Below, in pieces: positions 18,198-63,709 of a stretch of DNA of 64,000 nt (positions are counted from its first letter, which is position 1; each line of letters opens with the position of its first letter). Source of the stretch: a virus. Its lineage: Duplodnaviria; Heunggongvirae; Uroviricota; Caudoviricetes. A program made the position numbers and the translations under genes. A model generated the notes under the pieces. The model was not told the DNA's origin. It saw only the letters and a list, made by a program, of their open reading frames with translations, and made no database searches. Location of the stretch: the IMG/VR virus record IMGVR_UViG_3300042154_004306; one strand, given 5' to 3'.

Positions 18198-19154
18198 ATG
18201 TTAACTAAGAAGACGATTTTCATGTCCGCTCAACCGGATCATCCGTACTTTCATTGGCAAGTTGAAGTACTAATCAATAATTTTATTAAGCTTGGAATTA
18301 ATCCAAATTGGATTGAAATTCTTTGGGCATACTCAGGCAATCCCTCATACGAGGGCCTTGCTCTTGCGACTAAATATCCAACCGTTAGATTCTTTTTCTA
18401 TGAAAAAACAGTAAAGGATAATTTCGGTTACATTCCAATTCTCAGACCTGATATTTTAGAACAACACTTTAGACGATTCCCAGAACTTCGTGGTGAAACT
18501 GTGTTCTATCATGATTCAGATATTATCTTTAGAAAACTTCCGGATTTTGATTCAATGCATAGCGACTTGTATTGGTACCTAAGTGATACGGTCTCATACA
18601 TTGGTGCTAACTACATAAAGAGCAAGTCTGAGGATCTTTTTCTAGATCTATGTAGTTTATCAAAAATTCCACCAGAGACGGTTGAGAAGAATGAGGAGGG
18701 CTCAGGTGGTGCACAGTATCTAATGAAAGGAGTTACTGCTGATTTTTGGCAAGAGGTTAAGGAAGACTCCTTATTACTATACAAATACATGTCGGATCGA
18801 GAAAATGAAGAACGTAAAACTCTATCCGCCGACGAATTAAAAACCTATAATCCAGTGCAAAAATGGTGTGCGGACATGTGGTCAGTTCTTTGGGGAGCAT
18901 GGAAGATGGGAGCTCAAACAATCGTCACTCCTGACTTGGATTTTAGCTGGGGAACTTCGTCAATCTCAGATTACGAGAGTTGTAATATTATGCACAATGC
19001 TGGAGTAACTGGCGACAGGTCCACTGAGCTATTCTATAAAGCCGACTTTAGGGATTCAAGCCCATTTGCCGCAGATCTAAGTTTTGTTAAACCTGATACT
19101 GCTTCCGCTAAATACGTTGAAGCAATTTTATATACTCAAGAAAAAAGAGGCTAG
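18198..19154 (+). CDS. GT-A glycosyltransferase resembling peptidyl-Ser/Hyp O-glycosyltransferases (SGT1/HPAT, GT96/GT95-like)
   Basis: N-terminal YFHWQ, DxD motif (HDSDIIF), WCADMW (cf. W-x-x-E-M-Y) and a late IMHNAG His motif. Confidence 0.6.
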   Translation: MLTKKTIFMSAQPDHPYFHWQVEVLINNFIKLGINPNWIEILWAYSGNPSYEGLALATKYPTVRFFFYEKTVKDNFGYIPILRPDILEQHFRRFPELRGETVFYHDSDIIFRKLPDFDSMHSDLYWYLSDTVSYIGANYIKSKSEDLFLDLCSLSKIPPETVEKNEEGSGGAQYLMKGVTADFWQEVKEDSLLLYKYMSDRENEERKTLSADELKTYNPVQKWCADMWSVLWGAWKMGAQTIVTPDLDFSWGTSSISDYESCNIMHNAGVTGDRSTELFYKADFRDSSPFAADLSFVKPDTASAKYVEAILYTQEKRG

Positions 19155-30064: not shown

Positions 30065-30655
30065 TTACCGAAACGGTGATCCTCCAACCCAAAGTACTAG
30101 GCTTCTTCGAATTCCGCGAGTCACTGGCGTAACTCGGTGTAGCATGTAACTTGGAAAAATTAGAACCGCTCCATGAGTGTTAGGCAGTCTTTCAGGATTC
30201 ATGCCCCTAAGTATCTCAAAGTCTCCACCGTCATATTCGCTAGGATCGCTTAACTGTACTGATATGCTTACTTTTCTGTGAGATGCTGTGCCTGGACCAA
30301 GGTCAACATGATAGCCGTAGTGGCCACCACCTTCATGATACTCGGTGTACTGTATGCTTTCTGGACTTGAAATTAGGTCAAAATTCCATAAATTTGAATT
30401 AGCCGTCCTTGCGAAATCTAGCATTTTACTGTAGAGCCAATGAGCCTCCGGCTTTGAATTATCAATCCATTTAATGCGGCTCTTTCTAATCTCGGCGGTT
30501 GGAGAGTCTGTTCCAAATGTGACAGCCTCTTCGTATTTGAACTCGGTTGCAAGTTCATGAGCTCGATTAATTTCATCAATTGAAAAACCTCTTTCAAACC
30601 AATACCAGTTTAATAGGTCAATCTCTTTTTGGGGAAATACTAGTTTCCAGGTCAT
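30065..30655 (-). CDS. 2OG-Fe(II) dioxygenase (prolyl-4-hydroxylase/PKHD-type)
   Basis: HVD...H facial triad (HYGYHVD; MLHRVTPV), YDGGDF and R-x-S-L-V-x-W. Confidence 0.85.
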   Translation of the reverse strand: MTWKLVFPQKEIDLLNWYWFERGFSIDEINRAHELATEFKYEEAVTFGTDSPTAEIRKSRIKWIDNSKPEAHWLYSKMLDFARTANSNLWNFDLISSPESIQYTEYHEGGGHYGYHVDLGPGTASHRKVSISVQLSDPSEYDGGDFEILRGMNPERLPNTHGAVLIFPSYMLHRVTPVTRGIRRSLVLWVGGSPFR

Positions 30656-30674
30656 TACCGTTGTATTTTTAGTT

Positions 30675-30731
30675 TTTATACTTACAAAAATTAGGTAGTT
30701 TACTAATCCAATTTAAAAAATCGAGTATAAA
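30675..30731. promoter_or_regulatory. Back-to-back divergent promoters: AAAC-N17-TATAAA (-) and AATC-N17-TATAAA (+)
   Basis: Minus-strand element 30675-30701 faces the oxygenase; plus-strand element 30705-30731 faces the glycosyltransferase operon. Confidence 0.55.
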
Positions 30732-30753
30732 ATAAAAACGCACAACTCAAGTA

Positions 30754-33558
30754 ATGTCATTAATAAAAGCGCACACTTCGATAATTGGAGATACTGGCTA
30801 TAACTGCCATTCACGAAATTTCTTCAAAGCTTTAAATAAACACATCCCAGTCCAGGTTAGAAATTGGACGGTCGGTGAATCTTGGAAAGGATACCAAACC
30901 GATAGCCCACATGACGGTGAGTACTATATGGATGATGAACTGCGAACAATGCTCGATTCACAAAGCCTAATAGAGCCTAGTGGCCAATCCAAGGGCTATC
31001 CTCTCTATCGGAACTACCGGCAAGAGACTTCCGGTCAACCGGTTAACATCATTCTAAATGATAATCGACATGAGTACTTTTTTCAAAATTATTCAGGCCC
31101 AAAGATTGCATATAACGTTTGGGAAACAACTCAGCAGCCTAAAGAATTTTTTGAGAGATTAAAGACGATGGATCAGGTTTGGGTTCCAAGTAAATGGCAA
31201 CGAGATTGCACAGTTGAGCAGGGAATTCCGGCCGCTCTGGTCAAAATCGTGCCAGAGGGAGTTGATGCTTCCATGTTTTTTCCAAGAACTAGAGAAGTGA
31301 TTGACCCAAGCGGTCGAACCTTTAAATTCGTATTGATAGGCCGTTGGGAATATCGTAAAGCGACTAGAGAGATCATTCAAGCATTCACTCAAACCTTTAG
31401 CGAAGACGAACCAGTAGAATTAATTATCAATGTGGATAACGGATTCGCAACAGACGGCCTATCCTCAACTGAGGAACGCCTTGAAAAATTCGGCATCAAG
31501 CATGCAGGCATCAAAGTGATTCATCACATAACCAAACAGGAATACGTCGACCTACTTAATTCAGCTGACGTGTTTGTGTCTTGTGCCAGAAGCGAAGGTT
31601 GGAACCTACCTCTAATTGAGGCAATGGCCAGCGGAGTTCCATCGATATACAGTAATTGGGGAGCTCAATTGGAGTTTGCAGAAGGCAAGGGAATCCCAGT
31701 CAAAATAGTTGGAGAAGTTCCAGCAGCGGCACAGAATGAAGAATCTTGGGATTCAAGCTCTCCTGGTAATTTTGCAGAGCCGGACTTTGCGGATTTACGC
31801 CTAAAACTTAGAGACTCCTATGAAAATTTCACAGCACATAAGGCAAAAGCTCTACTAGACTCCGATGAAATTCGTAGAGTTTTTAGCTGGGAAAATGCTG
31901 CAATAATCGCATTAGATCACATTAGAGAGGTGCTAGCCTCCAGTACAATTGAATACTCATCTGACTTTGCATGGGTGACCTGTGGGAACGAGAAGTACAT
32001 GCCGTTAATTCAGAAGTTAGCTACTTCGCTAGACCTATTTTCCAAGCGAAAATTAATCGTATATGGAATAGATTGTGAAGTCCCCAATATGGGACCAAAC
32101 GTAATCGGTCGAACCTTGTCAATTCAATATCACTCAGAACATGATAAGTGGTACTGGAAGCAATCTGCATGCCTTGAATCACTAAACGAAGAATTTGAGA
32201 ATTTTATTTGGGTCGACGGCGATATTGTTGCGAATTACACGATCGATAATATTGCCGAGTACTTTAATTTAGTTGATAATTATCCAGTACCAGACGTCCA
32301 CATACAAGAAGATTTCGTGGGTTGGCATACAAAACCGGACGGAACTCTAGGTGAGCAATTATTCAATCAAAATATTTGCGAAAAAGAGAAAATTCCTAGA
32401 CTTGCAACAAAGTCTCACATTTGCCTCTACCTCTATAATAAGAAGTGTGATTGGTGGTTTGCTGAGATTTTAGAAACCTATAAGAACACAAAACCTGAAG
32501 AGTATGGCTTCTACTTCCAATGGAATGATGAGGGTATTGATAACTACTTACGCTGCAAGTATAACTTTCAAAAATTTCTACCAATCTCTAACTTCGATGT
32601 TTCTGAATGGGATGGAGAGATTCAAGGATCTAATGGCAAAGCAATGGAACATTTCCTGTCTTTTTGGAGAGAAAACGGGCCAAAGAACTTCGGTAAAATA
32701 TACGGATGGCAAAGAATTCCAGCAGATAAATCAAAAATTCTCTATTTTCATGGAAACAAAAATCTAGACTTTGCACAAACCATGATAGACTATGTCAAAT
32801 TCCAAAGAGACGGCTCATTTTTTGACTCGGAATACTTTTTTGTTGCTGACAATCAAATAAAGAATTTGGGAGAGATTCGTAATGCTCACGGATCAACCAT
32901 GGATATTGCCCATCAATACGGCTGGGATTATGCAATCTATCATGAAATTTATAATTTAGGAGATTATGAACATCCTAGAGAGTCTGCTGAAAAATTAGTT
33001 AAGGTGAGACCTGGAGATGTAGTGGTCGATCTTGGAGGAAATATCGGAATATTTACCAGATACGCGTATCACATGGGAGCAAGTAAGATCATTACCTTTG
33101 AACCGGACCGTAGATACTTTAAGATACTAAAACAAAATGCCCCAGCCAATACAATTCTGTTTAATGCAGCAATCGGCAATGAGGTTGGCAAATTAAGATT
33201 AACTGAAAGCACTCATTTGGGAGGATCTAACCTATGGCATCATGCCGATCCGACTACGACACAATACGATGTTAATACCTACACCCTAAATTACCTACTA
33301 GATAACGGATTGATTGATAAAATCGATTTCTTAAAGGTTGATATTGAGGGCTCTGAGATTATTGCATTGGATGGAATAAGCGATGCTCATCTTTCGAATA
33401 TCAGAAATATCGCAGTTGAGTATCATCATGAACACCTAAAATTCGATGATGAACTTAGAAACAATTTCATTACTCGATTGAATCGACTTGGTTTTAATTC
33501 ATACATGCTAATGTGCGGCTATGATAATGCACTACAATTAATTTACTTCTGGAAATAA
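30754..33558 (+). CDS. Trifunctional protein: GT4 glycosyltransferase + GT-A glycosyltransferase + FkbM-type methyltransferase
   Basis: EGWNLPLIEAMASG (GT4 E-x7-E); WVDGD and YFHG (GT-A); VVVDLGGNIG and FLKVDIEGSE (FkbM). Confidence 0.85.
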   Translation: MSLIKAHTSIIGDTGYNCHSRNFFKALNKHIPVQVRNWTVGESWKGYQTDSPHDGEYYMDDELRTMLDSQSLIEPSGQSKGYPLYRNYRQETSGQPVNIILNDNRHEYFFQNYSGPKIAYNVWETTQQPKEFFERLKTMDQVWVPSKWQRDCTVEQGIPAALVKIVPEGVDASMFFPRTREVIDPSGRTFKFVLIGRWEYRKATREIIQAFTQTFSEDEPVELIINVDNGFATDGLSSTEERLEKFGIKHAGIKVIHHITKQEYVDLLNSADVFVSCARSEGWNLPLIEAMASGVPSIYSNWGAQLEFAEGKGIPVKIVGEVPAAAQNEESWDSSSPGNFAEPDFADLRLKLRDSYENFTAHKAKALLDSDEIRRVFSWENAAIIALDHIREVLASSTIEYSSDFAWVTCGNEKYMPLIQKLATSLDLFSKRKLIVYGIDCEVPNMGPNVIGRTLSIQYHSEHDKWYWKQSACLESLNEEFENFIWVDGDIVANYTIDNIAEYFNLVDNYPVPDVHIQEDFVGWHTKPDGTLGEQLFNQNICEKEKIPRLATKSHICLYLYNKKCDWWFAEILETYKNTKPEEYGFYFQWNDEGIDNYLRCKYNFQKFLPISNFDVSEWDGEIQGSNGKAMEHFLSFWRENGPKNFGKIYGWQRIPADKSKILYFHGNKNLDFAQTMIDYVKFQRDGSFFDSEYFFVADNQIKNLGEIRNAHGSTMDIAHQYGWDYAIYHEIYNLGDYEHPRESAEKLVKVRPGDVVVDLGGNIGIFTRYAYHMGASKIITFEPDRRYFKILKQNAPANTILFNAAIGNEVGKLRLTESTHLGGSNLWHHADPTTTQYDVNTYTLNYLLDNGLIDKIDFLKVDIEGSEIIALDGISDAHLSNIRNIAVEYHHEHLKFDDELRNNFITRLNRLGFNSYMLMCGYDNALQLIYFWK

Positions 33559-33569
33559 ACCCATTTAAA

Positions 33570-34238
33570 ATGAGATCATTAGATAAAATAGCAAAAGCAA
33601 AGGGCACAGATAAATCTTCAGAGCTTCATAACTACTGTGAAAAGTACGAAAAATATTTGCCATTCAATAGATTAGAACCTATTACTCTATTGGAAATTGG
33701 AGTGCTTAACGCAGAATCTCTTGCGACTTGGAGAGAATACTATCCCAATGCAACAATCATCGGCATTGATATTAATCCGGATTGCAAGCAGTATGAAGAT
33801 CAACCGAATAATGTATTCGTTGAAATAGGTTCACAGTATGATGAGGCTTTCCTAAAGTCAATAGTTGATAAATGGGGACCTTTTGATATTGTACTAGATG
33901 ACGGTTCTCACATGAATCACCATGTAATCTTTTCATTTGAACAGCTATTTAGTTCAATCAAACCTTCTGGAGTATACGTTGTCGAGGATGCATGCACTTC
34001 ATATTGGCCAGACTACGGAGGCGGCACTAAAAAACCTGGCACAATGATAGAATACTTCAAAGACCGAGTAGATGAAGTTAATTTCGGCGGAGAATGGCAA
34101 GAGTCCATCACACACAGTCACGCACGTCGTGAAGACTTGTTAATTGAACAATTCAAACGAAAGGGCTATAATTTCATAGGAACTCAAGTCGAGTCCTTAA
34201 ATTTCCTAAACAGCATAATCATAATAACAAAAAGATAA
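33570..34238 (+). CDS. Class I SAM-dependent O-methyltransferase (MycE/TylE sugar-O-methyltransferase-like)
   Basis: TDKS..HNY, LLEIGV, FDIVLDDGSH and GVYVVED motifs. Confidence 0.8.
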   Translation: MRSLDKIAKAKGTDKSSELHNYCEKYEKYLPFNRLEPITLLEIGVLNAESLATWREYYPNATIIGIDINPDCKQYEDQPNNVFVEIGSQYDEAFLKSIVDKWGPFDIVLDDGSHMNHHVIFSFEQLFSSIKPSGVYVVEDACTSYWPDYGGGTKKPGTMIEYFKDRVDEVNFGGEWQESITHSHARREDLLIEQFKRKGYNFIGTQVESLNFLNSIIIITKR

Positions 34239-34246
34239 CAATTATA

Positions 34247-37024
34247 ATGGCACACAAAGAACAGCAGGACTTTTGTAAAAAAATGAAAGCTAATTTTCCA
34301 AAATACTTTCAAAATAAAAAAGTATTAGATATTGGCTCCCTAGACGTTAATGGCAATAATCGATTCTTATTCGATGATTGCAACTATATTGGCCTTGACG
34401 TCGGAGATGGTAAAAACGTTGATGTAGTTTTTCCAGGCCATAAGTACGATGCTCCAGACGAGCAATTTGATGTAATTATCTCAACTGAAGTATTTGAACA
34501 TGATATGTATTATGAATCAACCATTCAAAATATTATCAGAATGCTAAAACCTGGAGGAATGTTTATTTTTACATGTGCTTCAGGTCAACGCCCTGAGCAT
34601 GGAACACTTCGCCGTGGAGAGCATGACGCTCCATTATTAATTCAGCAATCTCCAGAATGGGCAAATTACTATAAAAATTTAGAGAAGGAAGACTTTTTAG
34701 CAATTAATGAGTTTAAGAATGCATTCCCTGATGGAATATTCGAAGTAGGTTCACATGGCATGTATAACCACGAATGGGATGATCAGCTAATGCACAATAT
34801 TCATTCTGACATTTATTTCTTTGGAGTTAAAGGCGGCATTGCAAACGACCTTAAATTTTCACCAGACCACAGGCCGTCTCAAACTCAACCTGGAGAATAT
34901 TCAGACGATATTTTTGTTGTTGACACCTGGCCCAACACTCCAGAAAAGGAGGCTGATCTTATTGAGTGCATTAGGAAACTTAGAGAATTTAGCGGCATTC
35001 CGATCTTGTTAGTGTCTCACTATGCAATAAAACCTGAAATTCAAAAATTAGTAGATTACTATATTTTCGACAAAGATAATCCTCTTTTGCTAAACAAAGA
35101 TTTTGATTCAGTTAGCTCTTTTGCTAGCGGTAGATGGACTGCTACTAATGAATACCGAGTGGATAACTACATGGCCTACCATCATGATTATGCTATTTGG
35201 CAATCAATGACTCATGCCTTTAATTTTTGTAAGTATTTAGGTAAAAAGATGATACACTTTATGGAATACGATTGTCTGCTTGACACATTTCAGTATCGCC
35301 AAACCTTTTTAGAACAGGCTCGCAATCATGACGCCGTGATCTATGAATATCGTAAAGGTTCTGCAGCAGATCAACACCTATCTGCGTACATGGCAACCTA
35401 CATATTTTCAATAAAAACTGATATTGCCGTTGAGATGATGAAGCAGGTAAATTCAATTCAAGAATACTATTCGAATCGACCTGAAAGTTGGCAGCTTGAA
35501 AGACTTTTCTTAAGGTGCTTAACTGAACAAACTTCCAACATTCTAGTAAGTAAATACATTGCAAACTCAAACGAATTAAATACTCAAGCAGTTTGGAATA
35601 GAGATGGAATTCTCAGAAATGATGCAAAATTCCAGGTTTATCCATGTGCTGATGTAAATGGCAACTTTTACGTTCATCTTATTTCAGGATTTCACGAAGC
35701 GTCAGCTGATTCGGATTATCTACTTGAAATCAAATACGCAGGTCTCACTAAATTCGTAACTCTAACCATAGGTCAAATGACTCTAATTCACTTGGGAAAA
35801 TACAGTAAAGGTCAGACGATTAAAGTAAATTATTTAGGAGTTGAGGCATTCTCTGAATTTTTACAAGACGAGCTAGCCGAGTTCTTAAAAATGAATATTG
35901 TAACTTTGCCAAATGGTGCAGAACCTACGGTTGAAGTTTTTTATAATTTCGTGGACGGTGCATACGTTGAGATAAAATCAGATTCACCAAGTCCTTATAA
36001 AGTGTCATTTATCGATGATGATTCTGGTGTTACCCATTTTTCGACAACCCTTACTTCCGGTCATTGGGCTAAAACCGGGATCCAGTACTTCAAGAATTGG
36101 AGAATCGAGATTACGGACTCATTTAATAAGGTAATCGAGTCCGCTAAATATGACGCTGCCGGCCAACGAGTTTACATCGCCCTTGAGTCAAAAGCGCTAG
36201 GTGATACTTTTGCATGGCTGCCGTATGTTGAGGAGTTTAGAAAAAAGCATGATTGCGCAGTAATCTGCTCAACATTTCATAATCAATTATTTAAAGCGAC
36301 TTATCCAAATATCGGGTTCATTGAGCCAGGTAGTCCAATCGGTGGCGTGTACGCGCTTTACAGATTGGGTTGGTTTAACCATGGAGACCGCTTCGATGCG
36401 GACCGAAATCCTAGAGATTTTAAATTAGGTCCTTTGCAACGAACTGCTTCTGATATATTAGGTTTAGAGTATCGAGAGGTTAGACCGGTAATTTACCGCC
36501 CTGCTCGAAAATTGACAAAGAAGGTAGGCCTTGGAATTCACAGCACAGCTCAAGCAAAATATTGGAATAACTCAACTGGCTGGCAAGAGGTTACTGATTG
36601 GCTAATCGAAAATGGATATGAGCCCGTAATCTTGTCTAGGGAAGAAGACGGCTACATGGGAAATCCAAATCCAGTTGGAGCTGTTCAGCTTGTGCCAGGC
36701 CCGTTAAAGAGCGTCATTCACGAACTCTCTGAGTGTCAAGCATTCATAGGTATCAGTAGTGGATTGACCTGGTTAGCATGGGCTACCGATACGCCAACTG
36801 TTCAAATTTCCGGATTCACGGAACCTTTCAATGAGCCTAATGAGGGTATTATTAAGATATCTGCCCCAGCTGGCGCATGCTCAGGTTGTGCTAATCGATC
36901 AAAATTTGATCCAGGAGATTGGAACTGGTGCCCGGACCAAAAGGGCACGGACCGCCAATTTGAGTGCTCAAAATTAATCAGTGCAGACCGGGTAATCGCT
37001 AAACTAAGGGAGATTCTCGTATAG
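34247..37024 (+). CDS. Methyltransferase + unknown middle domain + Aah/TibC-like protein O-glycosyltransferase
   Basis: N-terminal VLDIGSLDVNG methyltransferase. C-terminal YNFVDGAYVEI...YFKNWRIEI barrel, ALGDTFAWLPYVEEFRKKHDC, FIGISSGLTWLAWA and CSGC...WCP...RQFEC four-Cys motif. Confidence 0.8.
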   Translation: MAHKEQQDFCKKMKANFPKYFQNKKVLDIGSLDVNGNNRFLFDDCNYIGLDVGDGKNVDVVFPGHKYDAPDEQFDVIISTEVFEHDMYYESTIQNIIRMLKPGGMFIFTCASGQRPEHGTLRRGEHDAPLLIQQSPEWANYYKNLEKEDFLAINEFKNAFPDGIFEVGSHGMYNHEWDDQLMHNIHSDIYFFGVKGGIANDLKFSPDHRPSQTQPGEYSDDIFVVDTWPNTPEKEADLIECIRKLREFSGIPILLVSHYAIKPEIQKLVDYYIFDKDNPLLLNKDFDSVSSFASGRWTATNEYRVDNYMAYHHDYAIWQSMTHAFNFCKYLGKKMIHFMEYDCLLDTFQYRQTFLEQARNHDAVIYEYRKGSAADQHLSAYMATYIFSIKTDIAVEMMKQVNSIQEYYSNRPESWQLERLFLRCLTEQTSNILVSKYIANSNELNTQAVWNRDGILRNDAKFQVYPCADVNGNFYVHLISGFHEASADSDYLLEIKYAGLTKFVTLTIGQMTLIHLGKYSKGQTIKVNYLGVEAFSEFLQDELAEFLKMNIVTLPNGAEPTVEVFYNFVDGAYVEIKSDSPSPYKVSFIDDDSGVTHFSTTLTSGHWAKTGIQYFKNWRIEITDSFNKVIESAKYDAAGQRVYIALESKALGDTFAWLPYVEEFRKKHDCAVICSTFHNQLFKATYPNIGFIEPGSPIGGVYALYRLGWFNHGDRFDADRNPRDFKLGPLQRTASDILGLEYREVRPVIYRPARKLTKKVGLGIHSTAQAKYWNNSTGWQEVTDWLIENGYEPVILSREEDGYMGNPNPVGAVQLVPGPLKSVIHELSECQAFIGISSGLTWLAWATDTPTVQISGFTEPFNEPNEGIIKISAPAGACSGCANRSKFDPGDWNWCPDQKGTDRQFECSKLISADRVIAKLREILV

Positions 37025-56217: not shown

Positions 56218-56484
56218 GTGTCCCCAACCTCTGCGAAGTACGCAACTGGCCAACGTGTCATGTTGAAGTCAGGTCAATCTGCAACAATCGTTGGAATTGA
56301 CCCAGTTGGTAAAACTTACAAGGTAATGGGATCTGATAATAAGTACCAATCCGTTAAGCCTGAAGAGATTGAAAAGATTGACTCGTCTAAATATAAAGAC
56401 TATCAGCAATCTGGTCCAAATCCTGAAAATCCAGACGAACTTTCAATTAAAGAAAAAGACGTTACTCTAGACCAAAGCTCATAA
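56218..56484 (+). CDS. SH3/KOW-like domain ORF, possibly a -1 frameshift extension of the upstream gene
   Basis: GQRVMLKSGQSATIVGID..KTYKV pattern; the frame stays open upstream across the A9 run. Confidence 0.55.
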   Translation: MSPTSAKYATGQRVMLKSGQSATIVGIDPVGKTYKVMGSDNKYQSVKPEEIEKIDSSKYKDYQQSGPNPENPDELSIKEKDVTLDQSS

Positions 56485-56518
56485 TCTTTAGTATAATATT
56501 CTCTAAAGATAATGTAAA

Positions 56519-57334
56519 ATGGCTGACGTACTATGCTCAATCGAAGAGGCTCGAATTAATGGAACTCTTCAAGTCTTCGAAAAGAAGACCAAATACCACG
56601 ACTATCAATTTCTAGTTAGATCTGAGGAAGAGATAAAATTCAATGTGTCTCAAAATATCTCTACTAAACCGACAGGCGGAGAATATTTTAAACCACTATT
56701 CATACCACATTATGCTCAAAACCCAGGAGGTCCATTGACTCTTGAGGATTTAGACGAAGAAGATGTTTGGTTGGATGCAGGCGGTCATATTGGAATATTT
56801 GCAACTCGTTTGCTAACCCAATTTCCAAGAATTCAAAAAGTTTATTCTTACGAACCTTTTCATAATAACGTTGAGTTTGCTCAGCAAAATATTGAAATGA
56901 ATCACGTACAAGACCGTTGCGAGATAATCGAGAAAGCGATAGTAGCCGACGATTCTAAGTCCGTTGAATTCTTCTTATCTCAGGATTCAGGTAAGCACAG
57001 CGTTCATCCAATCCGAGGACGCCAGGTCACAACTGTTCCTGCTGAGAATATTAATACAATCATTAAGGAAAAGGGAATTACCTGTATTAAGATGGACATT
57101 GAGGGTCTTGAATACGATATGATTAAAGCAATCAATAAGGAAAGCTTTGATCAGTTGAAGCTATTCATCGTTGAATACCATTTCCATTATAGTTGGTTAC
57201 TTGAAAACCGTGCAGCTAAGTTCAATGAGATTATGGAAATTTTTGGAAATAATTTTGACAGAATTTTCGTTAATCCAAGAACCGCAAACGGTAAGCACTT
57301 CATTACTCACTTTGCTGGATTTAAAAAGGCATAA
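56519..57334 (+). CDS. FkbM-family SAM methyltransferase
   Basis: WLDAGGHIGIF, YEP and IKMDIEGLE; TAGTATAAT at 56489-56497. Confidence 0.85.
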   Translation: MADVLCSIEEARINGTLQVFEKKTKYHDYQFLVRSEEEIKFNVSQNISTKPTGGEYFKPLFIPHYAQNPGGPLTLEDLDEEDVWLDAGGHIGIFATRLLTQFPRIQKVYSYEPFHNNVEFAQQNIEMNHVQDRCEIIEKAIVADDSKSVEFFLSQDSGKHSVHPIRGRQVTTVPAENINTIIKEKGITCIKMDIEGLEYDMIKAINKESFDQLKLFIVEYHFHYSWLLENRAAKFNEIMEIFGNNFDRIFVNPRTANGKHFITHFAGFKKA

Positions 57335-57759
57335 TGAGTCCATACAAGTTATTGCAGGAGATTTACCATAACGACCCTTGGAAGTCGCAAGTGTGTTGTA
57401 TTCTGCTTAACTGTACTCGAAGAGTTCAGGTCGATAGAGTTCGTGATGAACTCTATCGTCGTTATCCGGATGCGGTTGAAATGTCAATTGCTGAGCCTGG
57501 AGAACTTTCACAACTTCTTAAACCCTTAGGCCTTTATAACAGAAGAGCCAAAACTTTAATTAGATTCAGCATTGACTGGATTGATAAGGATTGGAAACAT
57601 CCCAAGGAACTGTACGGTATCGGTCAATATGCTGCAGATTCTTGGGATATTTTCTATGAAAATCGGTTAGATATTGAACCAAATGATGGAGTTCTAGTAA
57701 AATACTTACAATGGAAAAGAAATCAAGTAAATCACTCTATGCCTATTTTGGCGAATTAG
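57334..57759 (+). CDS. MBD4-like HhH-GPD DNA glycosylase (T:G/U:G mismatch type)
   Basis: LLQE..HNDPWK...ILLN.T, LLKPLGLY..RAKTL.RFS, WKHPKELYGIGQYAADSW.IF and PND (catalytic Asp position) closely track the MBD4 glycosylase domain. Confidence 0.85.
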   Translation: MSPYKLLQEIYHNDPWKSQVCCILLNCTRRVQVDRVRDELYRRYPDAVEMSIAEPGELSQLLKPLGLYNRRAKTLIRFSIDWIDKDWKHPKELYGIGQYAADSWDIFYENRLDIEPNDGVLVKYLQWKRNQVNHSMPILAN

Positions 57760-58778
57760 GACTATTCGATACGAATATACCAGGTCATACCTTCTATCAA
57801 ATTGGATTAATGGACGCCCTGTCTGAAAAATTCAAAGTTGATCAATTTGATTTCTTAAACTACGTTAGCGATAAGTACACAAGCGGCTCAATCGATCCAG
57901 TTTTTCCAAAGGATAATCTTGGAGAGCTCATGACCGAATACACAAGAAAATTAGTTAATAACTATCAGATTGCCTGGCCTGAAGTTATGGAAAAGATAAC
58001 AAATCGTGAATACGACAAAATATTCTTAAAAGCCAGATTCAGGAATTTGTCAACTTTGGAAAAAAAATTGAAAGATGCTAAGATTTTTGAAGACACTATC
58101 ACAACTGCGTTAGAAGTAGGATACGATCCGGCCGATATCGTCATCATCGATACGGATCTTTCCCTAAGTGAATCGTTCTTATCTACGATCGAGTCTCTTG
58201 GCCTTAGTCGAGAAATTCCATCAATTACCATGCCTGGAATGAGTAAAGCATTTATTCAGGACTGCTTAAGAATTCATGAAAATTCAACAGAGTCACCGTA
58301 TATAAATTTGATGTATTATGGAAACCTGTCATTTGATAATTACAAAGAAGGCCATTCCAAGAATCCAATCATAAATGATATTATCCAGTCAGTAGACCAG
58401 ACCCAAATGTTTGATGGTACGACGTTCACAATGACAGTTGCCGCAAAGAAGGACTTAAGCCTTGATCACTGGATTGGTGCAATGAATAGAGTTTCCCTGA
58501 CGGCCAGAGAGGATAGAGCACGTATTTGGCAGAATTTCTCACATTCAATAGTGTCGGTAAACGTAAGCAAGGATCTCTATATCAAAGAGAAATTTATCCC
58601 GGCTAGAGTTTACGAATCCATCATATTCGGTGTGATTCCAGTTTCATATAAATGGGGCCAGCATCCAGCAATGACGTTTGAAACAGTTGAAGATTTTTGG
58701 GAAATCTGCAAGTTTCTAGCCGAGTGTTCCAGACAGGACTATCTAAAGATTCTTAGACTTTGCGCTGACCGACTTTAA
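57711..58778 (+). CDS. GT-B glycosyltransferase, T4 beta-glucosyltransferase/CgeB-like
   Basis: LMYYGN and SVNVSKDLY..KFIPARVYESII resemble the BGT segments VIYGG and NFITLRVWE. Confidence 0.5.
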   Translation: MEKKSSKSLYAYFGELGLFDTNIPGHTFYQIGLMDALSEKFKVDQFDFLNYVSDKYTSGSIDPVFPKDNLGELMTEYTRKLVNNYQIAWPEVMEKITNREYDKIFLKARFRNLSTLEKKLKDAKIFEDTITTALEVGYDPADIVIIDTDLSLSESFLSTIESLGLSREIPSITMPGMSKAFIQDCLRIHENSTESPYINLMYYGNLSFDNYKEGHSKNPIINDIIQSVDQTQMFDGTTFTMTVAAKKDLSLDHWIGAMNRVSLTAREDRARIWQNFSHSIVSVNVSKDLYIKEKFIPARVYESIIFGVIPVSYKWGQHPAMTFETVEDFWEICKFLAECSRQDYLKILRLCADRL

Positions 58779-58821
58779 CCCAGGTTAGAGAATAAATAAT
58801 AAGAAATTACGCAATCAATAA

Positions 58822-61209
58822 ATGCAATATGTAGTTTCAGCAGAAGAGTACTTTGACTCACTAAATGAAAGCCGCCAGAATCTAGACAAGCTCATCAAGT
58901 ATTTTGAAAATATACCAGAGGCCTTCTTTGAGGCAATCGACCGAACTAACTGGTCAAAAATGGACGATTTCTTTAATCTTCCAGTGAATGAGGCCTCTTC
59001 GCAAGCAAAACTTAATCATCAACTTTTTTTACTAGATCACATTGAAGATATTAACAACATCATTCAAAAAGAGGACTTTTTAGTTAGAGCAGGTTACGAT
59101 ACCGTTGCTCTACGCGAAAGCGGCGAGTATTTAGCTACAGTTCAGTCTCTCGATGAGGGTTTACTTGGAACGGTTTGGAGTTTCATTAAAGGCATGGTCG
59201 CCGATCCGGACCCAGTTGAGATGACCTTAAATATCATTCGTCTTGTCCTAGACGTTATTGGTATTGTTCCATTCACTTGGGCAGGTTTTCCAATCGATAT
59301 TGTTGCAAACTTAATGTCTGCAGTAATTTCCATCTACAAGAACGATTTTTTCTCAGCGATTCTTAGCATTCTGTCAGCAATTGATGTAAGTAAAGTGAAT
59401 GCTGTTGCTACTAAGTTTCTTAAGCCTGCAGCGCCAATCATAAATAAAATAGCAAAAATAGCATTCAGATCAGGATCAGAAGCCGTTGCCCTTGAAAAAG
59501 TCGTAATTAACGCAAGAGAAGAATTAATAAAAATAGGCGGAAAAAGCCTATTGGACAATATTATAGGCTTATTTAAGAATATTGCAAGCTTCATAGTCGG
59601 AGCAGGATTAAGCATTGTCAAATTAATCGCAGGATTCGTTGAGTTTGCAATCAACCTTGTAACCGGTGGAGCCGCTAAAAAATACACAGCAAAGATTCCA
59701 CTATTCGTTGATAAACTTGCAGCCAACATGAGCTTATGGGGTAAAAATTTCGATAGCGCTTCTAAGATTTTAGTTGGAGCTGAGGGAGATTCTATTGCTC
59801 GAGCAAGTAAGGACCTTCAAAAAAATGCACTTGTAGCCACAAAGGGAGAAAGAAGCGCACTTATAGCTCAAACTAAAGCCGATGCAATTGCCGCCGGTAA
59901 AACTGGAAAAGCCGGTGATTTAGAGGTTGCCGCAAAGGTCAATGATTTTGATAAAGCAATAGTTGACCGATACTTGGATGCAACCGGCTATCTTGGAAAT
60001 CTTAGAGGAACTGTTAAAGAGACAAAAGTCTTCACGGACAAAATTTCAAAACTTACGAAAGCTGAACAAGATATTTGGATTGCTGCAAAAATGGAGAATG
60101 AAATAATTGGACAAGCTAAATTAAGTGCTGATGCAATACTAAAAGATAAAGATCTAGCAAAGAGACTGGCTGATTTGGGTTGGAGACCCGGTAGTGCTGA
60201 TCTAATGGCAATGGCAAAAAAAGGAGATACTGCCGGCGTTAAGAAGTTCTTTGAGGCTTTCTTAACCGATCCGCAATTATCTAAAAATTTAAGTAAGGCT
60301 GAAATCAGAGCATTCACACCATTTGTAGCCAGGCCGAAAGCATTCGTTGAAGGAGTCAAACACATGGATGATGTACTTAAAGTCGCAAAAACCATGGAAG
60401 GACTTAGCCGTACCGTGGCAAAACGAGCGATTCCATTAGAAAGAGTCTTAAGTTTCTTATCCAGACTCGTATGGCAGCAATTTGGAAATCTTGAGTGTTT
60501 AGTAGAAGTTGGAGCAAATAAGATGAGCGCAGCAATTGCGTCTCAAACGACTAAACTTGCATCAAAAGGCCTAGAGCTAGCTCTAAAACCTGCAGTAAAT
60601 GAGGCAGACGAACCTGCTCAAGATTCAGCTCAATTAGATGAGCTAGTCGCACAAGAGGTCGAAAAGAACAAAAAATTAAAAGAGCAGCTAAAGGCTAAAA
60701 AGGGTAAAGCTGATTGTGGAATGCTTGCGGCCGCGAACTCAGCGATAGTTGCTGCTCACGTTGCTGATTATCCTGGGTCAACTGCTAATTTAGGAGGAAC
60801 TTCTAACATGGGAGACGACAAAAAAGCCAGAGAGAATTTTGAAAAAACGAGCACCGAATACACTCAACAAATTCTTAAATCAATGAAGCTTGACACAAGC
60901 ATTGATGCACAACACGCAATCGATGGACTTGATCCAGTTACTCAACTTTCACTATCTGATGTTTGGGATTCTGAACATGGAGTAGTTAGCGTAAATACAT
61001 CAGAGGTTTCTAACATGAAGGAGATTGCGGATGGATTCGTTAAGCGAGGCCAATGGACTCAAGAAGAAGCTGATCGAGCTATTAAAAAGGCAACAGAGAT
61101 GCTAGATTCCGGAGATATGCCAGAAATTCCACTGCCCAAGTCAATTGAAAAAACGGATGAGGGCCTTTTTAAAACAAAAGGATTCGGATTCTCCTCTATA
61201 AATAACTAA
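58822..61209 (+). CDS. Putative internal head/ejection protein with a membrane-inserting, pre-toxin-TG-like segment
   Basis: ATAAATAA at 58792-58799; LNE/VNE/LDE sites; hydrophobic LDVIGIVP...NDFFSAILSILSAI segment. Confidence 0.5.
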   Translation: MQYVVSAEEYFDSLNESRQNLDKLIKYFENIPEAFFEAIDRTNWSKMDDFFNLPVNEASSQAKLNHQLFLLDHIEDINNIIQKEDFLVRAGYDTVALRESGEYLATVQSLDEGLLGTVWSFIKGMVADPDPVEMTLNIIRLVLDVIGIVPFTWAGFPIDIVANLMSAVISIYKNDFFSAILSILSAIDVSKVNAVATKFLKPAAPIINKIAKIAFRSGSEAVALEKVVINAREELIKIGGKSLLDNIIGLFKNIASFIVGAGLSIVKLIAGFVEFAINLVTGGAAKKYTAKIPLFVDKLAANMSLWGKNFDSASKILVGAEGDSIARASKDLQKNALVATKGERSALIAQTKADAIAAGKTGKAGDLEVAAKVNDFDKAIVDRYLDATGYLGNLRGTVKETKVFTDKISKLTKAEQDIWIAAKMENEIIGQAKLSADAILKDKDLAKRLADLGWRPGSADLMAMAKKGDTAGVKKFFEAFLTDPQLSKNLSKAEIRAFTPFVARPKAFVEGVKHMDDVLKVAKTMEGLSRTVAKRAIPLERVLSFLSRLVWQQFGNLECLVEVGANKMSAAIASQTTKLASKGLELALKPAVNEADEPAQDSAQLDELVAQEVEKNKKLKEQLKAKKGKADCGMLAAANSAIVAAHVADYPGSTANLGGTSNMGDDKKARENFEKTSTEYTQQILKSMKLDTSIDAQHAIDGLDPVTQLSLSDVWDSEHGVVSVNTSEVSNMKEIADGFVKRGQWTQEEADRAIKKATEMLDSGDMPEIPLPKSIEKTDEGLFKTKGFGFSSINN

Positions 61210-61224
61210 AATTACGATAACCGA

Positions 61225-62319
61225 ATGACATTCGTTAAAACATTTGAAGATTTTAAAAATCAGGTCTCACAAGTTTCAGAAAAAGCCATTTCAGGTGGCT
61301 CTGTAACTAAGGAAGCTGAAAACAAAGCTGCTGGCGAACTTGCTAAATTCACAGTAGTTCTTAAAGCGACTAGCGATAATGATACGATAAGTGATGCAAA
61401 TCCAGCACAGAGCGCCCTAGACCATCTTGTAAACAGTCAAGACTTCCAGAACTGGTATTCCGGTGAAACTACCAGCAATGATGCGGCTGCCCAAACTTTT
61501 ACAAGTTCAAATTCAACTTCCATTGCATTCATTGACACTGGCAAGCACAGACAAGCTGGTTTCTTGAAAAGAGAAAAAGCAACTGAAACCTTTATTTTCA
61601 AGAGAATCGGTTCGCCTAACACAACTGATCGAAATAAGTCTGAACTTAATTATGACGTTAAGAAATTTCCAGCACAGGCAAAATCGAAAGTTGCTTCAGG
61701 CGGCACCGTTTATGCATGGAACCTTGAGCAGGAAAAGACAATGACTCTTAATCCAGCTCAACCAATGACAGTTCCATTGGACAGCTTAACCGTTGACCTT
61801 GCAATGAAAACTAATATTACTGCTACACCGGCTAGCCAATCAAGCCCACAAACTCCACCGGCTACACAAATTCCGGCTGGATCTGGAGGAGCGCCCACTA
61901 CTACTCAAGCCTCTACTAATACTAATCAGGCCTCTTCTTATGTTGGACTTAAGCGTACTCAAACCTTTGATAAAAGAATTCAGGATCTACAAAAGACAAT
62001 TATTGCTAAGGGTGGTCCTGCTGCTGATGCGATCGTTGCAAAAGGCGGAGCTATTGGAAAATACGGATCAGGTACAGCTTCGGCAATTGGTATTATAATT
62101 GGAACAAATAAGGCTGAAGATGAAATCACAGCAGACATTGATGCTAAATTAAAAACTGCTCTTGCTGGAGTAACCCCTGATCAAATTGCAAAGGTTCAAG
62201 CGCCTGCTGCAAAAACTGGAGTAACTTCACCGGCTGCTGCTAAGCCTGCAGCTACTTCTGCTAAACCGGCCGCTGCTGCTAAGCCTAAGGCTGTCGCTAA
62301 AGCTGACCCAGGATTCTAA
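61225..62319 (+). CDS. Putative internal head protein with a peptidoglycan-binding-like segment and AAKP tail
   Basis: VKTFEDF leader; IQDLQK...GKYGSGTASAI; ATAAATAA at 61198-61205. Confidence 0.5.
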   Translation: MTFVKTFEDFKNQVSQVSEKAISGGSVTKEAENKAAGELAKFTVVLKATSDNDTISDANPAQSALDHLVNSQDFQNWYSGETTSNDAAAQTFTSSNSTSIAFIDTGKHRQAGFLKREKATETFIFKRIGSPNTTDRNKSELNYDVKKFPAQAKSKVASGGTVYAWNLEQEKTMTLNPAQPMTVPLDSLTVDLAMKTNITATPASQSSPQTPPATQIPAGSGGAPTTTQASTNTNQASSYVGLKRTQTFDKRIQDLQKTIIAKGGPAADAIVAKGGAIGKYGSGTASAIGIIIGTNKAEDEITADIDAKLKTALAGVTPDQIAKVQAPAAKTGVTSPAAAKPAATSAKPAAAAKPKAVAKADPGF

Positions 62320-63060: not shown

Positions 63061-63249
63061 ATGTTAATCGTAAATACAAAGGACAATGGATCATTAGACA
63101 GAGCCCTAAAGGTACTAAAAAGAAAATTTGAACAGACTGGAACAGTTATAGAACTTCGCTCACGTAAGGAGTTCACAAAACCTAGCGTCAAACGCAGAGA
63201 AGAGATGATTGATGCAAAGTATCGCCAAACCTTTATCAAGAATGATTAA
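63061..63249 (+). CDS. rpsU: Ribosomal protein bS21 (Bacteroidia-type)
   Basis: LDRALKVLKRKFEQTG...LRSRKEFTKPSVKRR; MLI start; Tyr at position 54. Confidence 0.92.
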   Translation: MLIVNTKDNGSLDRALKVLKRKFEQTGTVIELRSRKEFTKPSVKRREEMIDAKYRQTFIKND

Positions 63250-63709
63250 AACATTTTCAGATTTTTTGAACGAGAAAAAAAAGAATTGGAGTGGAGCTGG
63301 CGTTGCTATTGTTTACGATGCCAAAATTCTATTGGTCCATCCAGCAAATGGCAGTTGGGTCAAACCGGTTATGGGAATTCCCAAGGGTGGAGTTGAGGAG
63401 GGCGAAGACCTTCTTGATGCAGCGCTTAGAGAACTTCGTGAGGAGACCGGCATTAAACTTTCACCCGATAAATTAGAGCAACAAGTCGAGTCAATCGACA
63501 TTTTTAATAAAGACGGCAAGTACCAACATTCTCTACACTATTTCGTTTGTAGAATATCTGATCTTTCCGAAATTGGGCTAGACTCGCTAGCCGTTCCAAA
63601 ATCCCAACTTCAAAAAGAAGAGGTTGATTGGGCAGGTTTTGTTAATATCAAGGAAGCTTATGGAAAAGTTTCAAGAGCTCAATTAATAATATTAGACCGC
63701 CTTTCCTAA
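63242..63709 (+). CDS. NUDIX hydrolase with a capsid-targeting-like leader
   Basis: Nudix box GGVEEGEDLLDAALRELREETGI; ATG 63242 gives MIKTFSDFLNE. Confidence 0.88.
   Translation: MIKTFSDFLNEKKKNWSGAGVAIVYDAKILLVHPANGSWVKPVMGIPKGGVEEGEDLLDAALRELREETGIKLSPDKLEQQVESIDIFNKDGKYQHSLHYFVCRISDLSEIGLDSLAVPKSQLQKEEVDWAGFVNIKEAYGKVSRAQLIILDRLS

What the first reader, a model, noticed from the sequence alone, without database searches (positions are those of the whole stretch)
56519..58778. FkbM methyltransferase / MBD4-like glycosylase / BGT-like glycosyltransferase cassette: possible DNA hypermodification plus repair module
Three overlapping, co-oriented genes follow one TAGTATAAT box. The glycosylase closely tracks eukaryotic MBD4, which removes T, U or hmU opposite G after deamination of (modified) cytosine. 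The third gene has T4 beta-glucosyltransferase-like motifs. Inference: the phage glycosylates a hydroxymethyl-pyrimidine, O-methylates the sugar and repairs deamination products, which would imply an unusual modified base. Alternatively the GT and methyltransferase serve the fibre glycan.
Basis: partly seen in the sequence, partly recalled or inferred. Interest (0 to 1): 0.7.

Follow-up and report, generated by a model that had tools for sequence, protein, structure and literature searches.

The report
Probable phage DNA sugar-tagging cassette
A giant uncultured lake phage carries a three-gene unit (methyltransferase, MBD4-like DNA repair glycosylase, unannotated sugar transferase) that most likely adds a sugar to hydroxymethylcytosine in the phage's own DNA and removes its deamination products, a known anti-restriction strategy run here by an enzyme family nobody has named.

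Summary
Three co-oriented, overlapping genes (56519-58778) follow a TAGTATAAT box that is conserved across the clade. They encode an FkbM-family methyltransferase, a 141-aa glycosylase matching the MBD4 catalytic domain (E 2e-28), and a 355-aa GT-B glycosyltransferase with no Pfam or PHROG match.

The DNA-modification reading is supported by context, not by likeness to T4 BGT. Profile comparison with BGT and AGT is null, and fold scores tie with many GT-B enzymes.

- All five near-complete relatives (217-271 kb) carry a second thymidylate-synthase homologue with the T4 gp42 dCMP-hydroxymethylase signature (C146, L143D, N177D, D169 kept). One also has a gp56-like dCTPase.
- In eight of nine small, unrelated phage contigs, distant members of the same GT family (25-31% identity) lie among DNA and nucleotide genes: usually a P-loop kinase-like gene and a UDG-like glycosylase just upstream, with a gp42-type TS homologue, dUTPase_2 or a DNA polymerase beside them.

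GT is the core gene. The methyltransferase is in 54 of 58 loci and the glycosylase in 27 of 58, lost repeatedly. Sugar O-methylation is untested, and the window's own hydroxymethylase is inferred only. Earlier notes of this scan reported the gp42-type enzyme in related phages.

Verdict: probable new family of 5hmC-DNA glycosyltransferases with tailoring and repair accessories.

The parts
56468..56497 (+). Sigma-70-like promoter: TAGACC, 18 nt spacer, TATAAT, containing the TAGTATAAT box at 56489-56497. It differs from the TATAAATA-type late elements before neighbouring virion genes.
   Evidence: Best promoter-like site in the region, 10 of 12 matches. The (T/G)TAGTATAAT box is conserved 20-30 nt upstream of MT in diverged relatives. 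The same box precedes the GT gene at 18198.
56519..57334 (+). FkbM-family SAM-dependent methyltransferase, 271 aa. It is an accessory tailoring enzyme whose substrate is not shown; the proposed substrate is the sugar on DNA or its NDP-sugar donor.
   Evidence: PF05050 5e-11 and TIGR01444 1.2e-19, both above cut-off; phrog_8156. AF2 model pLDDT 90.8 with a class I MTase fold; FkbM 2py6 Z 12.8, tied with TYW2 and Trm5. Present next to GT in 54 of 58 distinct loci.
57334..57759 (+). MBD4-type HhH DNA glycosylase domain, 141 aa, without a methyl-CpG-binding domain. Proposed to excise hmU, T or U opposite G.
   Evidence: PDB phmmer 2e-28 to MBD4 glycosylase domains. Q8 (mouse Q423) is invariant and D102 (mouse D534) nearly invariant. 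Y514 is replaced by W82 and R442 by C27 (residue roles from PMC3458566 and PMC3479182). Present in 27 of 58 loci, always between MT and GT.
57711..58778 (+). Orphan GT-B glycosyltransferase, 355 aa, the core gene of the cassette. Proposed 5-hydroxymethylcytosine DNA glycosyltransferase.
   Evidence: No Pfam, PHROG, NCBIfam or PDB sequence match. AF2 pLDDT 90.5 with a GT-B fold. The family has only 59 clusters at 50% identity among 1.8 billion proteins. Distant members lie in dCMP-hydroxymethylase / UDG / kinase / polymerase clusters. Family-wide invariant residues are H26, K107, R109, N112, S114, D122, D147, D149, G204, N205, K217, R266, K287, R299 and E302.

Best explanation
The cassette is a DNA-modification operon of a roughly 270-kb T4-like lake phage, transcribed from a host-type (early or middle) promoter. 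As in T4, the phage probably replaces dCTP with 5-hydroxymethyl-dCTP, using a gp56-like dCTPase, a gp42-type dCMP hydroxymethylase and a kinase encoded elsewhere in the genome. After replication the GT-B enzyme transfers a sugar from an NDP-sugar to the 5-hydroxymethyl group of cytosine in DNA. The invariant H26 with D147/D149 would act as base, and K217, R266, K287, R299 and E302 would hold the NDP. The FkbM methyltransferase most likely O-methylates that sugar or its donor. It is a dispensable tailoring step, absent in 4 of 58 loci. The MBD4-like glycosylase excises hmU (or T or U) opposite G, which arises when hmC (or C) is deaminated, and so starts base excision repair. It is a dispensable accessory, lost at least seven times.

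Shown here: the gene identities, the fold, the conservation, the genomic associations and the active-site signatures. Inferred: the acceptor (DNA 5hmC), the donor sugar, the methylation target, the glycosylase's substrates, and the presence of the hydroxymethylase in this very genome.
For: 1. All five near-complete relatives have a second TS-family gene besides thyA. It has C146, L143D, N177D, C168N and D169 kept, which is identical to T4 gp42 (criteria from PMC13326640). Its best PDB matches are CMP and dCMP hydroxymethylases.
2. G001 encodes a T4 gp56-like dCTPase, 39% identical over 94 aa, next to its polymerase gene.
3. Distant GT-family members (A1 profile E from 2.7e-32 to 3.1e-18; 31% identity over 348 aa) sit in eight of nine contexts next to DNA or nucleotide-metabolism genes. 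The layout is a P-loop kinase-like gene, a UDG family-4/5-like gene, GT, then a gp42-signature TS homologue, dUTPase_2, PolA or PolB.
4. No PF09198 BGT and no significant AGT match were found in the relatives searched; BGT was checked in G001 and G002 with T4 as positive control. No classical DNA GT therefore competes for the role.
5. The cassette has a conserved TATAAT-type promoter inside a late virion-gene block.
6. A bona fide DNA glycosylase is translationally coupled inside the operon.
7. Language-model feature neighbours include clusters that are 97-100% PF09198 T4-Gluco-transf, scores 0.94-0.95. This is a lead only.
Against: There is no detectable sequence homology to BGT or AGT (hhalign 0.5% and 2%). 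Fold scores do not single out DNA GTs: the top Z of 17.1 is a pterin glucosyltransferase, against BGT 15.3 and AGT 14.5. GT is acidic (pI 5.2) where BGT is 9.05, although AGT is 6.1. The cassette lies among virion genes. FkbM enzymes typically tailor glycans. The same phage has a large fibre-glycosylation cluster that includes a GT4-FkbM fusion. The hydroxymethylase was not seen in the window's own genome, which is not held. No chemistry was measured.
Confidence: 0.6

Rival explanations
1. MT and GT build or tailor a glycan on virion or internal proteins, as the fibre-glycosylation cluster at 15.7-37 kb probably does. The glycosylase is an unrelated small gene that happened to insert between them.
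For: The cassette lies between virion-type late genes, and up686 and dn364 have Thr/Ser/Pro-rich stretches. The FkbM domain of the 934-aa GT4-FkbM fusion hits the same PHROG as MT (phrog_8156). The GT at 18198 has the same TAGTATAAT box. Fold neighbours are mostly GT4-type enzymes. GT is acidic.
Against: The GT family's distant members are embedded in nucleotide and replication modules next to gp42-type enzymes in 8 of 9 contexts, never next to structural genes there, although L112 is uninformative. The cassette MT and the fused FkbM domain are only weakly alike, 26% identity at E 1e-3. A DNA glycosylase occupies the same slot in lineages down to 38% GT identity.
Confidence: 0.2
2. GT does modify DNA, but the glycosylase-like proteins are not repair enzymes. 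The MBD4-like protein here and the UDG-like protein in small phages would act as base-flipping or target-recognition partners of the GT, or as weapons against unmodified host or competitor DNA.
For: Two non-homologous glycosylase folds sit immediately upstream of the same GT family, often with overlapping ORFs. Y514, which is essential in MBD4, is Trp here, and the Arg finger is not conserved. Two family members have Ala at the catalytic Asp (P0299 and P0330).
Against: The catalytic Asp and the pocket Gln are kept in nearly all members. UDG motifs GxAPG, FTN and HPS are kept. GT occurs without any glycosylase in about half of the clade, and G004 has no HhH-GPD or UDG gene at all. A glycosylase is therefore not required for GT function.
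Confidence: 0.12
3. The TS homologue makes a different base, 5-methyl-dCMP or 5-hydroxy-dCMP. GT then attaches to 5hoC, or is unrelated, while the glycosylase repairs T:G from 5mC deamination.
For: TS homologues are known to yield 5mC, 5hmC, 5hoC or 5hmU (PMC13326640). The classical substrate of MBD4 is T:G.
Against: The published discriminators point to hydroxymethylation. L143D is typical of hydroxymethyl products, whereas Leu goes with methyl. D169 is retained, whereas 5hodCMP synthases carry D169N.
Confidence: 0.08

Closest known systems
Phage T4 hmC pathway: gp56 dCTPase, gp42 dCMP hydroxymethylase, alpha- and beta-glucosyltransferases (PDB 1qkj, 1nzd, 1y6f)
   Same: Relatives carry a gp42-signature TS homologue and a gp56-like dCTPase. 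GT has the GT-B fold and is about the size of BGT. The predicted logic is pre-replicative hmC followed by post-replicative glycosylation. The phage has a T4-like backbone: gp23-like capsid protein, gp15, baseplate wedge, UvsX, gp46/47-like proteins.
   Different: No sequence similarity to BGT (PF09198) or AGT (PF11440). GT is acidic. The gene sits in the late-gene block with its own promoter. It is coupled to an FkbM methyltransferase and a DNA glycosylase, neither of which T4 has.
Metavirome GT-B DNA glycosyltransferases associated with thymidylate-synthase homologues (bioRxiv 10.1101/2023.12.21.572611)
   Same: GT-B fold enzymes that resemble T4 BGT only structurally and are assigned to DNA by gene neighbourhood with ThyS homologues.
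   Different: Whether this family is among their roughly 25,000 HMM hits is unknown. That paper does not mention FkbM, O-methyl sugars or glycosylase partners.
Glycosylase domain of mammalian MBD4 (PDB 4ew4, 4evv, 4dk9)
   Same: About 44% identity over the whole catalytic domain. The catalytic Asp and the base-reading Gln are conserved. MBD4 excises T, U and 5hmU opposite G, which are exactly the deamination products of 5mC, C and 5hmC.
   Different: No methyl-CpG-binding domain. Tyr514 is replaced by Trp and the Arg442 finger by Cys, with an invariant Arg three residues later. It is phage-encoded and frequently lost.
RB69 / DLP3 5-hydroxycytosine arabinosylation clusters (PMC13326640)
   Same: A TS homologue, a dNMP kinase and DNA glycosyltransferases make a glycosylated cytosine.
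   Different: Those synthases carry D169N, whereas Asp is kept here. The GTs are different and no methyltransferase or glycosylase is involved.
Virion glycosylation systems: the mycobacteriophage systems named in this scan's earlier notes (Che8, Corndog, Myrna), and the chlorovirus PBCV-1 A064R GT plus FkbM-like methyltransferase domains, cited from my own knowledge
   Same: A glycosyltransferase paired with a sugar O-methyltransferase, encoded among structural genes.
   Different: In those systems the acceptors are capsid or tail proteins. Here the GT family's wider gene neighbourhood is nucleotide and DNA metabolism.

Membership tests
FkbM methyltransferase family (PF05050 / TIGR01444) | Profile match above the curated cut-off | tested here: met
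   PF05050 43.5 bits against a cut-off of 22.7. TIGR01444 71.1 bits against 37.7.
FkbM methyltransferase family (PF05050 / TIGR01444) | Class I SAM-MTase fold with a glycine-rich SAM loop | tested here: met
   AF2 pLDDT 90.8. FkbM 2py6 gives Z 12.8, rmsd 3.0 over 171 residues. D86, G88 and G92 of the LDAGGHIG loop are invariant.
FkbM methyltransferase family (PF05050 / TIGR01444) | O-methylation of a sugar or other hydroxyl substrate | not testable with these tools
   Fold neighbours (TYW2, Trm5, FkbM) tie at Z 12.5-13 and do not indicate a substrate.
MBD4-type HhH-GPD mismatch glycosylase | Sequence homology to the MBD4 catalytic domain over its full length | tested here: met
   phmmer E 2e-28 over residues 2-128. 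Pfam HhH-GPD scores 26.1 bits, just under its 26.2 cut-off.
MBD4-type HhH-GPD mismatch glycosylase | Catalytic Asp (mouse D534 / human D560) and pocket Gln (Q423 / Q449) | tested here: met
   D102 is present and at least 90% conserved. Q8 is invariant in 26 family members. Residue roles come from PMC3458566 and PMC3479182.
MBD4-type HhH-GPD mismatch glycosylase | Tyr514 (the Y514F mutant is nearly inactive) and the Arg442 intercalating finger | tested here: not met
   Tyr514 aligns to W82, which is nearly invariant as Trp in the phage family. Arg442 aligns to C27, which varies among C, R, L and Q, while R30 is invariant.
MBD4-type HhH-GPD mismatch glycosylase | [quoted passage not shown] | tested here: not met
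   The protein is 141 aa and consists of the glycosylase domain only.
T4 beta-glucosyltransferase family (GT63, PF09198) | Sequence or profile homology | tested here: not met
   No Pfam hit at E <= 0.1. hhalign of A1 against T4 BGT gives probability 0.5%. No PDB sequence hit at E <= 10.
T4 beta-glucosyltransferase family (GT63, PF09198) | GT-B two-Rossmann fold superposable on BGT | tested here: met
   1nzd gives Z 15.3, rmsd 4.2 over 276 residues. This ties with many other GT-B enzymes; the top Z is 17.1.
T4 beta-glucosyltransferase family (GT63, PF09198) | Catalytic Asp100 equivalent at the end of an N-domain strand | tested here: inconclusive
   Invariant D147 and D149 follow strand 143-146. 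No residue-level superposition on BGT was available.
T4 beta-glucosyltransferase family (GT63, PF09198) | 5hmC in duplex DNA as acceptor | not testable with these tools
   Only genomic association with gp42-type enzymes was obtained.
GT4 / CgeB-type (PF00534, PF13524) glycan or protein glycosyltransferases | Profile match; EX7E motif | tested here: not met
   No Pfam hit at E <= 0.1. The second Glu is present (E302), but the position of the first Glu is F295. Structural Z values to GT4 enzymes are the highest, 16-17, but not separated from the rest.
T4-type pre-replicative 5hmC pathway (in the phage clade) | TS homologue with C146, L143D/E, N177D and D169 retained | tested here: met
   Met in G001, G002 and G004 and in five further clade proteins. 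Also met in three small-phage clusters. The window's own genome is not held, so for this phage the feature is inferred by bracketing on the GT tree.
T4-type pre-replicative 5hmC pathway (in the phage clade) | dCTPase of the gp56 type | tested here: met
   L107:1126-1602 against T4 gp56 is 39% identical over 94 aa, E 7e-25. Sub-threshold PF08761 hits occur in four of five relatives.

The most novel reading that the evidence does not exclude
The virion DNA of this widespread lake-phage clade carries an O-methylated glycosyl-5-hydroxymethylcytosine, a DNA hypermodification chemistry not yet described. It would be made by an unannotated GT-B family plus an FkbM methyltransferase. Phages with glycosylated hmC would also recurrently recruit a dedicated mismatch glycosylase (MBD4-type here, UDG-type elsewhere) to police deamination of the modified base.
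Probability: 0.3. Interest if true: 0.8.

Novelty: new variant of a known kind. Interest (0 to 1): 0.62.

Why it matters
Glycosylated hmC is the textbook phage defence against restriction and CRISPR. Only a few DNA glycosyltransferase families are known, and most were found next to their base-modifying enzyme. Here an unannotated GT-B family of about 190 sequence clusters, which no Pfam, PHROG or NCBIfam model detects, is tied to gp42-type hydroxymethylases in two unrelated phage groups. That gives a concrete, testable candidate for a new DNA GT.

The near-universal FkbM partner predicts a methylated sugar on DNA, which would be new chemistry. Such a base would be relevant to enzymes used for 5hmC mapping and to sequencing artefacts in metagenomes.

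The embedded MBD4-like glycosylase is the closest non-eukaryotic relative of the MBD4 catalytic domain that I saw. It suggests that phages with modified cytosine carry their own base excision repair for hmU:G.

Tried and rejected
- **Cultured relatives.** blastn of the cassette and tblastn of GT against 50,697 phage records found no match, so there is no cultured relative to lean on.
- **Kinship to BGT or AGT.** hhalign of the GT family against T4 BGT and AGT gave 0.5% and 2%, so kinship is not shown.
- **Fold searches with the GT model.** Foldseek and VIA-align searches against the PDB and Foldseek against BFVD identify GT-B but cannot separate DNA GTs from GT4-type enzymes.
- **MT fold search** is likewise uninformative on substrate.
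- **Net charge and pI of GT** is not decisive, because AGT is also acidic.
- **Tet/JBP search in relatives** found nothing, but the control was silent, so it shows nothing.
- **PF09198 search.** The first run had a silent control. I repeated it with T4 as positive control.
- **The window's whole genome** is not held, and the 90-kb NCBI contig L092 could not be searched. The homologue list for the hydroxymethylase did not reveal a cluster on the 270,359-nt contig among the 120 rows shown.
- **Complex prediction of GT with the glycosylase** returned no verdict. I take nothing from it either way.
- **Rejected idea: the UDG-like gene in small phages merely travels with the polymerase.** The order kinase-like, UDG-like, GT is kept with PolA, with PolB and with dUTPase_2 as the downstream neighbour.
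Full report
**Observation**

The MT stop and the GLY start share a base (TAATG), and GLY overlaps GT by 49 nt. TAGTATAAT lies at 56489-56497. With TAGACC 18 nt upstream it is the best sigma-70-like site of the region, 10 of 12 matches. The number of such sites in the region is not above shuffles. However, the (T/G)TAGTATAAT box is kept 20-30 nt before the MT start in relatives whose surrounding sequence has diverged. The same box precedes another enzyme gene at 18198, whereas a T4-late-like TATAAATA precedes the virion-type gene at 61225.

**Gene identities**

- **MT** is an FkbM-family methyltransferase: PF05050 5e-11, TIGR01444 1.2e-19, phrog_8156. Its model (pLDDT 90.8) is a class I SAM-MTase. 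FkbM (2py6, Z 12.8) ties with TYW2 and Trm5, so the fold does not give the substrate.
- **GLY** matches the glycosylase domain of mouse and human MBD4 at E 2e-28 over its whole length. Endonuclease III comes next at 0.015.
- **GT** has no match in Pfam, PHROGs, NCBIfam or PDB sequences. Its model (pLDDT 90.5, pTM 0.90) is a GT-B fold.
- **GT fold comparison.** By VIA-align the top match is a pterin glucosyltransferase (Z 17.1). T4 BGT scores 15.3, T4 AGT 14.5 and a phage HY126 GT 13.6. These are effectively tied, so the fold cannot decide the acceptor.
- **GT and BGT.** Profile comparison of the family with T4 BGT and AGT is null, at 0.5% and 2%. Language-model feature neighbours do include clusters that are 97-100% PF09198 (scores 0.94-0.95). 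I treat that as a lead only.

**The phage and the conservation of the cassette**

The window belongs to an uncultured T4-like jumbo phage. It has a gp17-type terminase, a baseplate wedge protein and gp15, and relatives have a gp23-like capsid protein. The identical GT lies on a 270,359-nt contig.

The GT family has 189 hits in the 5.8-billion-protein set, all unnamed. It has only 59 clusters at 50% identity among 1.8 billion proteins.

In 80 IMG/VR loci the order up686, up512, sm88, MT, [GLY], GT, dn795 is conserved. Among 57 distinct GT sequences with enough flank:

| Arrangement | Loci |
|---|---|
| MT + GT | 29 |
| MT + GLY + GT | 24 |
| GLY + GT | 2 |
| GT alone | 2 |

With the window's own locus added that makes 58 loci: MT is in 54 and GLY in 27. 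On a GT tree of these 58, GLY presence needs 7 to 11 changes and MT presence 3. GT is therefore the core gene, MT a near-constant accessory and GLY a frequently lost one. GLY always sits in the same slot. G004 (84% complete) has MT + GT but no HhH-GPD or UDG gene anywhere.

**A hydroxymethyl-pyrimidine pathway exists in the clade**

All five near-complete relatives (217-271 kb) carry a 292-296-aa second TS-family gene besides thyA. In G001 it lies beside dCMP deaminase and among UvsX-, DnaB- and gp46/47-like genes.

I aligned it with E. coli ThyA and T4 gp42. It has C146, L143D, C168N, D169 and N177D, which is the gp42 pattern. By the published discriminators, N177D means a dCMP substrate, L143D/E means a hydroxymethyl rather than a methyl product, and D169N marks 5-hydroxy-dCMP synthases (PMC13326640). 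This pattern therefore predicts 5hm-dCMP. The best solved relatives are MilA CMP hydroxymethylase (9e-18) and T4 gp42 (1e-13), both ahead of thymidylate synthases.

G001 also has a gp56-like dCTPase, 39% identical over 94 aa, next to its polymerase gene. I found no PF09198 BGT (checked in G001 and G002 with T4 as positive control) and no significant AGT match.

The window's own genome is not held. G001/G005, G002/G003 and G004 bracket the window's lineage on the GT tree, so I infer the same pathway for it. Other agents of this scan made the same gp42-type call on related 254-kb lake phages (e1-5256808, e1-5369918).

**The decisive association**

The most distant members of the GT family come from small, unrelated phages. 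Their profile E-values run from 2.7e-32 to 3.1e-18, with up to 31% identity over 348 aa to the window's GT. They share the YxYFG...PGHxxYQ N-terminus and the family's invariant residues. In eight of nine contexts they lie in the nucleotide and replication module.

| Context | Gene order |
|---|---|
| L096, L098, L100/L101 | dUTPase_2 nearby; P-loop kinase-like, UDG-like, GT, TS homologue, PolA (in L096 dUTPase_2 lies between GT and TS) |
| L102/L103, L099 | (kinase-like), UDG-like, GT, PolB |
| L097, contig of P0160 | kinase-like, UDG-like, GT, dUTPase_2 |
| L111 | GT, TS homologue |
| L112 | uninformative |

The three TS homologues I aligned from these clusters (L096, L098, L100) again carry the gp42 signature. 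The UDG-like proteins are family-4/5-like, with GxAPG, FTN and HPS motifs kept. The GT family is thus linked to a dCMP hydroxymethylase in two unrelated phage groups. In both it has a DNA glycosylase of a different fold immediately upstream.

**The glycosylase in detail**

Residue roles are taken from the MBD4-DNA structures (PMC3458566 and PMC3479182).

- The catalytic Asp (mouse D534) is D102 here. It is conserved in at least 90% of 26 family members, with Ala in P0299 and P0330.
- The base-reading Gln423 is Q8 and is invariant.
- Tyr514, whose Y514F mutant is nearly inactive, is Trp82. Trp is nearly invariant at this position in the phage family.
- The Arg442 finger is Cys27, a position that varies among C, R, L and Q. 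R30 nearby is invariant.
- There is no MBD domain.

This is an MBD4-type catalytic domain with an altered pocket and wedge. Activity on hmU:G, T:G or U:G is plausible but unproven. The family is large, with 615 hits, and also occurs in marine phages away from this GT.

**Mechanism proposed**

- Pre-replicative 5hmC is made by a dCTPase, a hydroxymethylase and a kinase. These were seen in relatives and are inferred here.
- GT carries out post-replicative glycosylation. This rests on association only.
- MT carries out an optional O-methylation of the sugar or its donor. This rests only on family habit and conserved adjacency.
- GLY carries out optional excision of deaminated bases opposite G. 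This rests on homology.

A host-type promoter fits an enzyme needed while DNA replicates. It would equally fit an enzyme that must precede late substrates.

**Rivals**

The main rival is virion or fibre glycosylation. The same phage has a large cluster with a GT4-FkbM fusion, further MT and GT9 genes and a 2OG oxygenase beside collagen-like fibres (earlier notes e1-5611371 and e1-5611361). The cassette also sits among late genes with Thr/Ser-rich neighbours. I give this rival 0.2, because the GT family's wider neighbourhood is DNA metabolism, not structure.

A more unusual reading is that the glycosylase-like proteins are base-flipping partners of GT. This is not excluded. It is disfavoured because about half of the clade lacks a glycosylase.

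**Novelty and limits**

hmC glycosylation is a known strategy. Three things are new: the enzyme family, its constant FkbM partner, and the recurrent pairing with a glycosylase. I found no paper linking FkbM with bacteriophage and hydroxymethylcytosine. The metavirome GT survey does not mention O-methyl sugars or glycosylases.

Everything about substrates is inference, and no chemistry, expression or binding was measured.

Noticed in passing
L096, L098, L100-L103, L097 (e.g. L098:2966-8376): Small PolA and PolB phages share a compact module: dUTPase_2, a P-loop kinase-like gene (Walker A GxNGTGKD, no Pfam match), a UDG family-4/5-like gene, this GT family, a gp42-signature TS homologue and a DNA polymerase. 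It looks like a complete, portable hmC-glycosylation cassette.
   Followed up: partly
family of window:57334-57756 (A3; P0299, P0330; L104, L105): MBD4-type glycosylase domains are abundant in uncultured phages, with 615 hits including marine Tara samples. They are far closer to mammalian MBD4 (E 2e-28) than to Mig or EndoIII. Two members have Ala at the catalytic Asp. In a marine phage the gene sits beside peptide deformylase, away from any GT of this family.
   Followed up: partly
L089:5933-6424 (G001): A SET-domain protein gene (PF00856, 5.8e-6) lies between the Mre11-like (gp47-like) and Rad50-like (gp46-like) genes of a 270-kb relative.
   Followed up: no
L089:13044-17684 (G001, minus strand): A DnaJ-domain protein (J domain plus DnaJ_C) is encoded next to a 673-aa prohead-protease-like protein and the gp23-like major capsid protein.
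   Followed up: no
window 63061-63709 (by identity with L092:15351-15999): A ribosomal protein S21 gene and a NUDIX hydrolase gene follow the internal-protein-like genes. Beyond the window end, L092 shows a DNA ligase, a 159-aa guanylate-kinase-like protein (a possible dNMP kinase for hm-dCMP), RNase T and UvdE.
   Followed up: no
window 30065-37024: A 2OG-Fe(II) oxygenase (PF13640), a 934-aa GT4 + FkbM fusion, a 222-aa methyltransferase and a 925-aa methyltransferase + GT9 fusion lie beside collagen-like fibre genes. This cluster was already reported by earlier notes of this scan.
   Followed up: partly
G001:C1:262442-263587 (L084, L087): The canonical thyA of relatives matches PF00303 in two or three separate pieces within one region.
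   Followed up: no
P0165 (4876 aa): A 4,876-residue protein matched the GT-family profile in 11 separate stretches, all to profile positions about 15-59, the PGHxFYQ region. This is unexplained. It may be a repeat that mimics this motif.
   Followed up: no
L096:18531-19541: A tubulin-family gene (PF00091) lies on a 19.7-kb contig of a small PolA phage that also carries the hmC-GT module.
   Followed up: no
window 58779-58821: The 43-nt gap after GT contains GAATAAATAATAAG, a late-promoter-like ATAAATA element, before the 795-aa gene at 58822. The cassette is thus bracketed by a TATAAT-type promoter upstream and a late-type element downstream.
   Followed up: no
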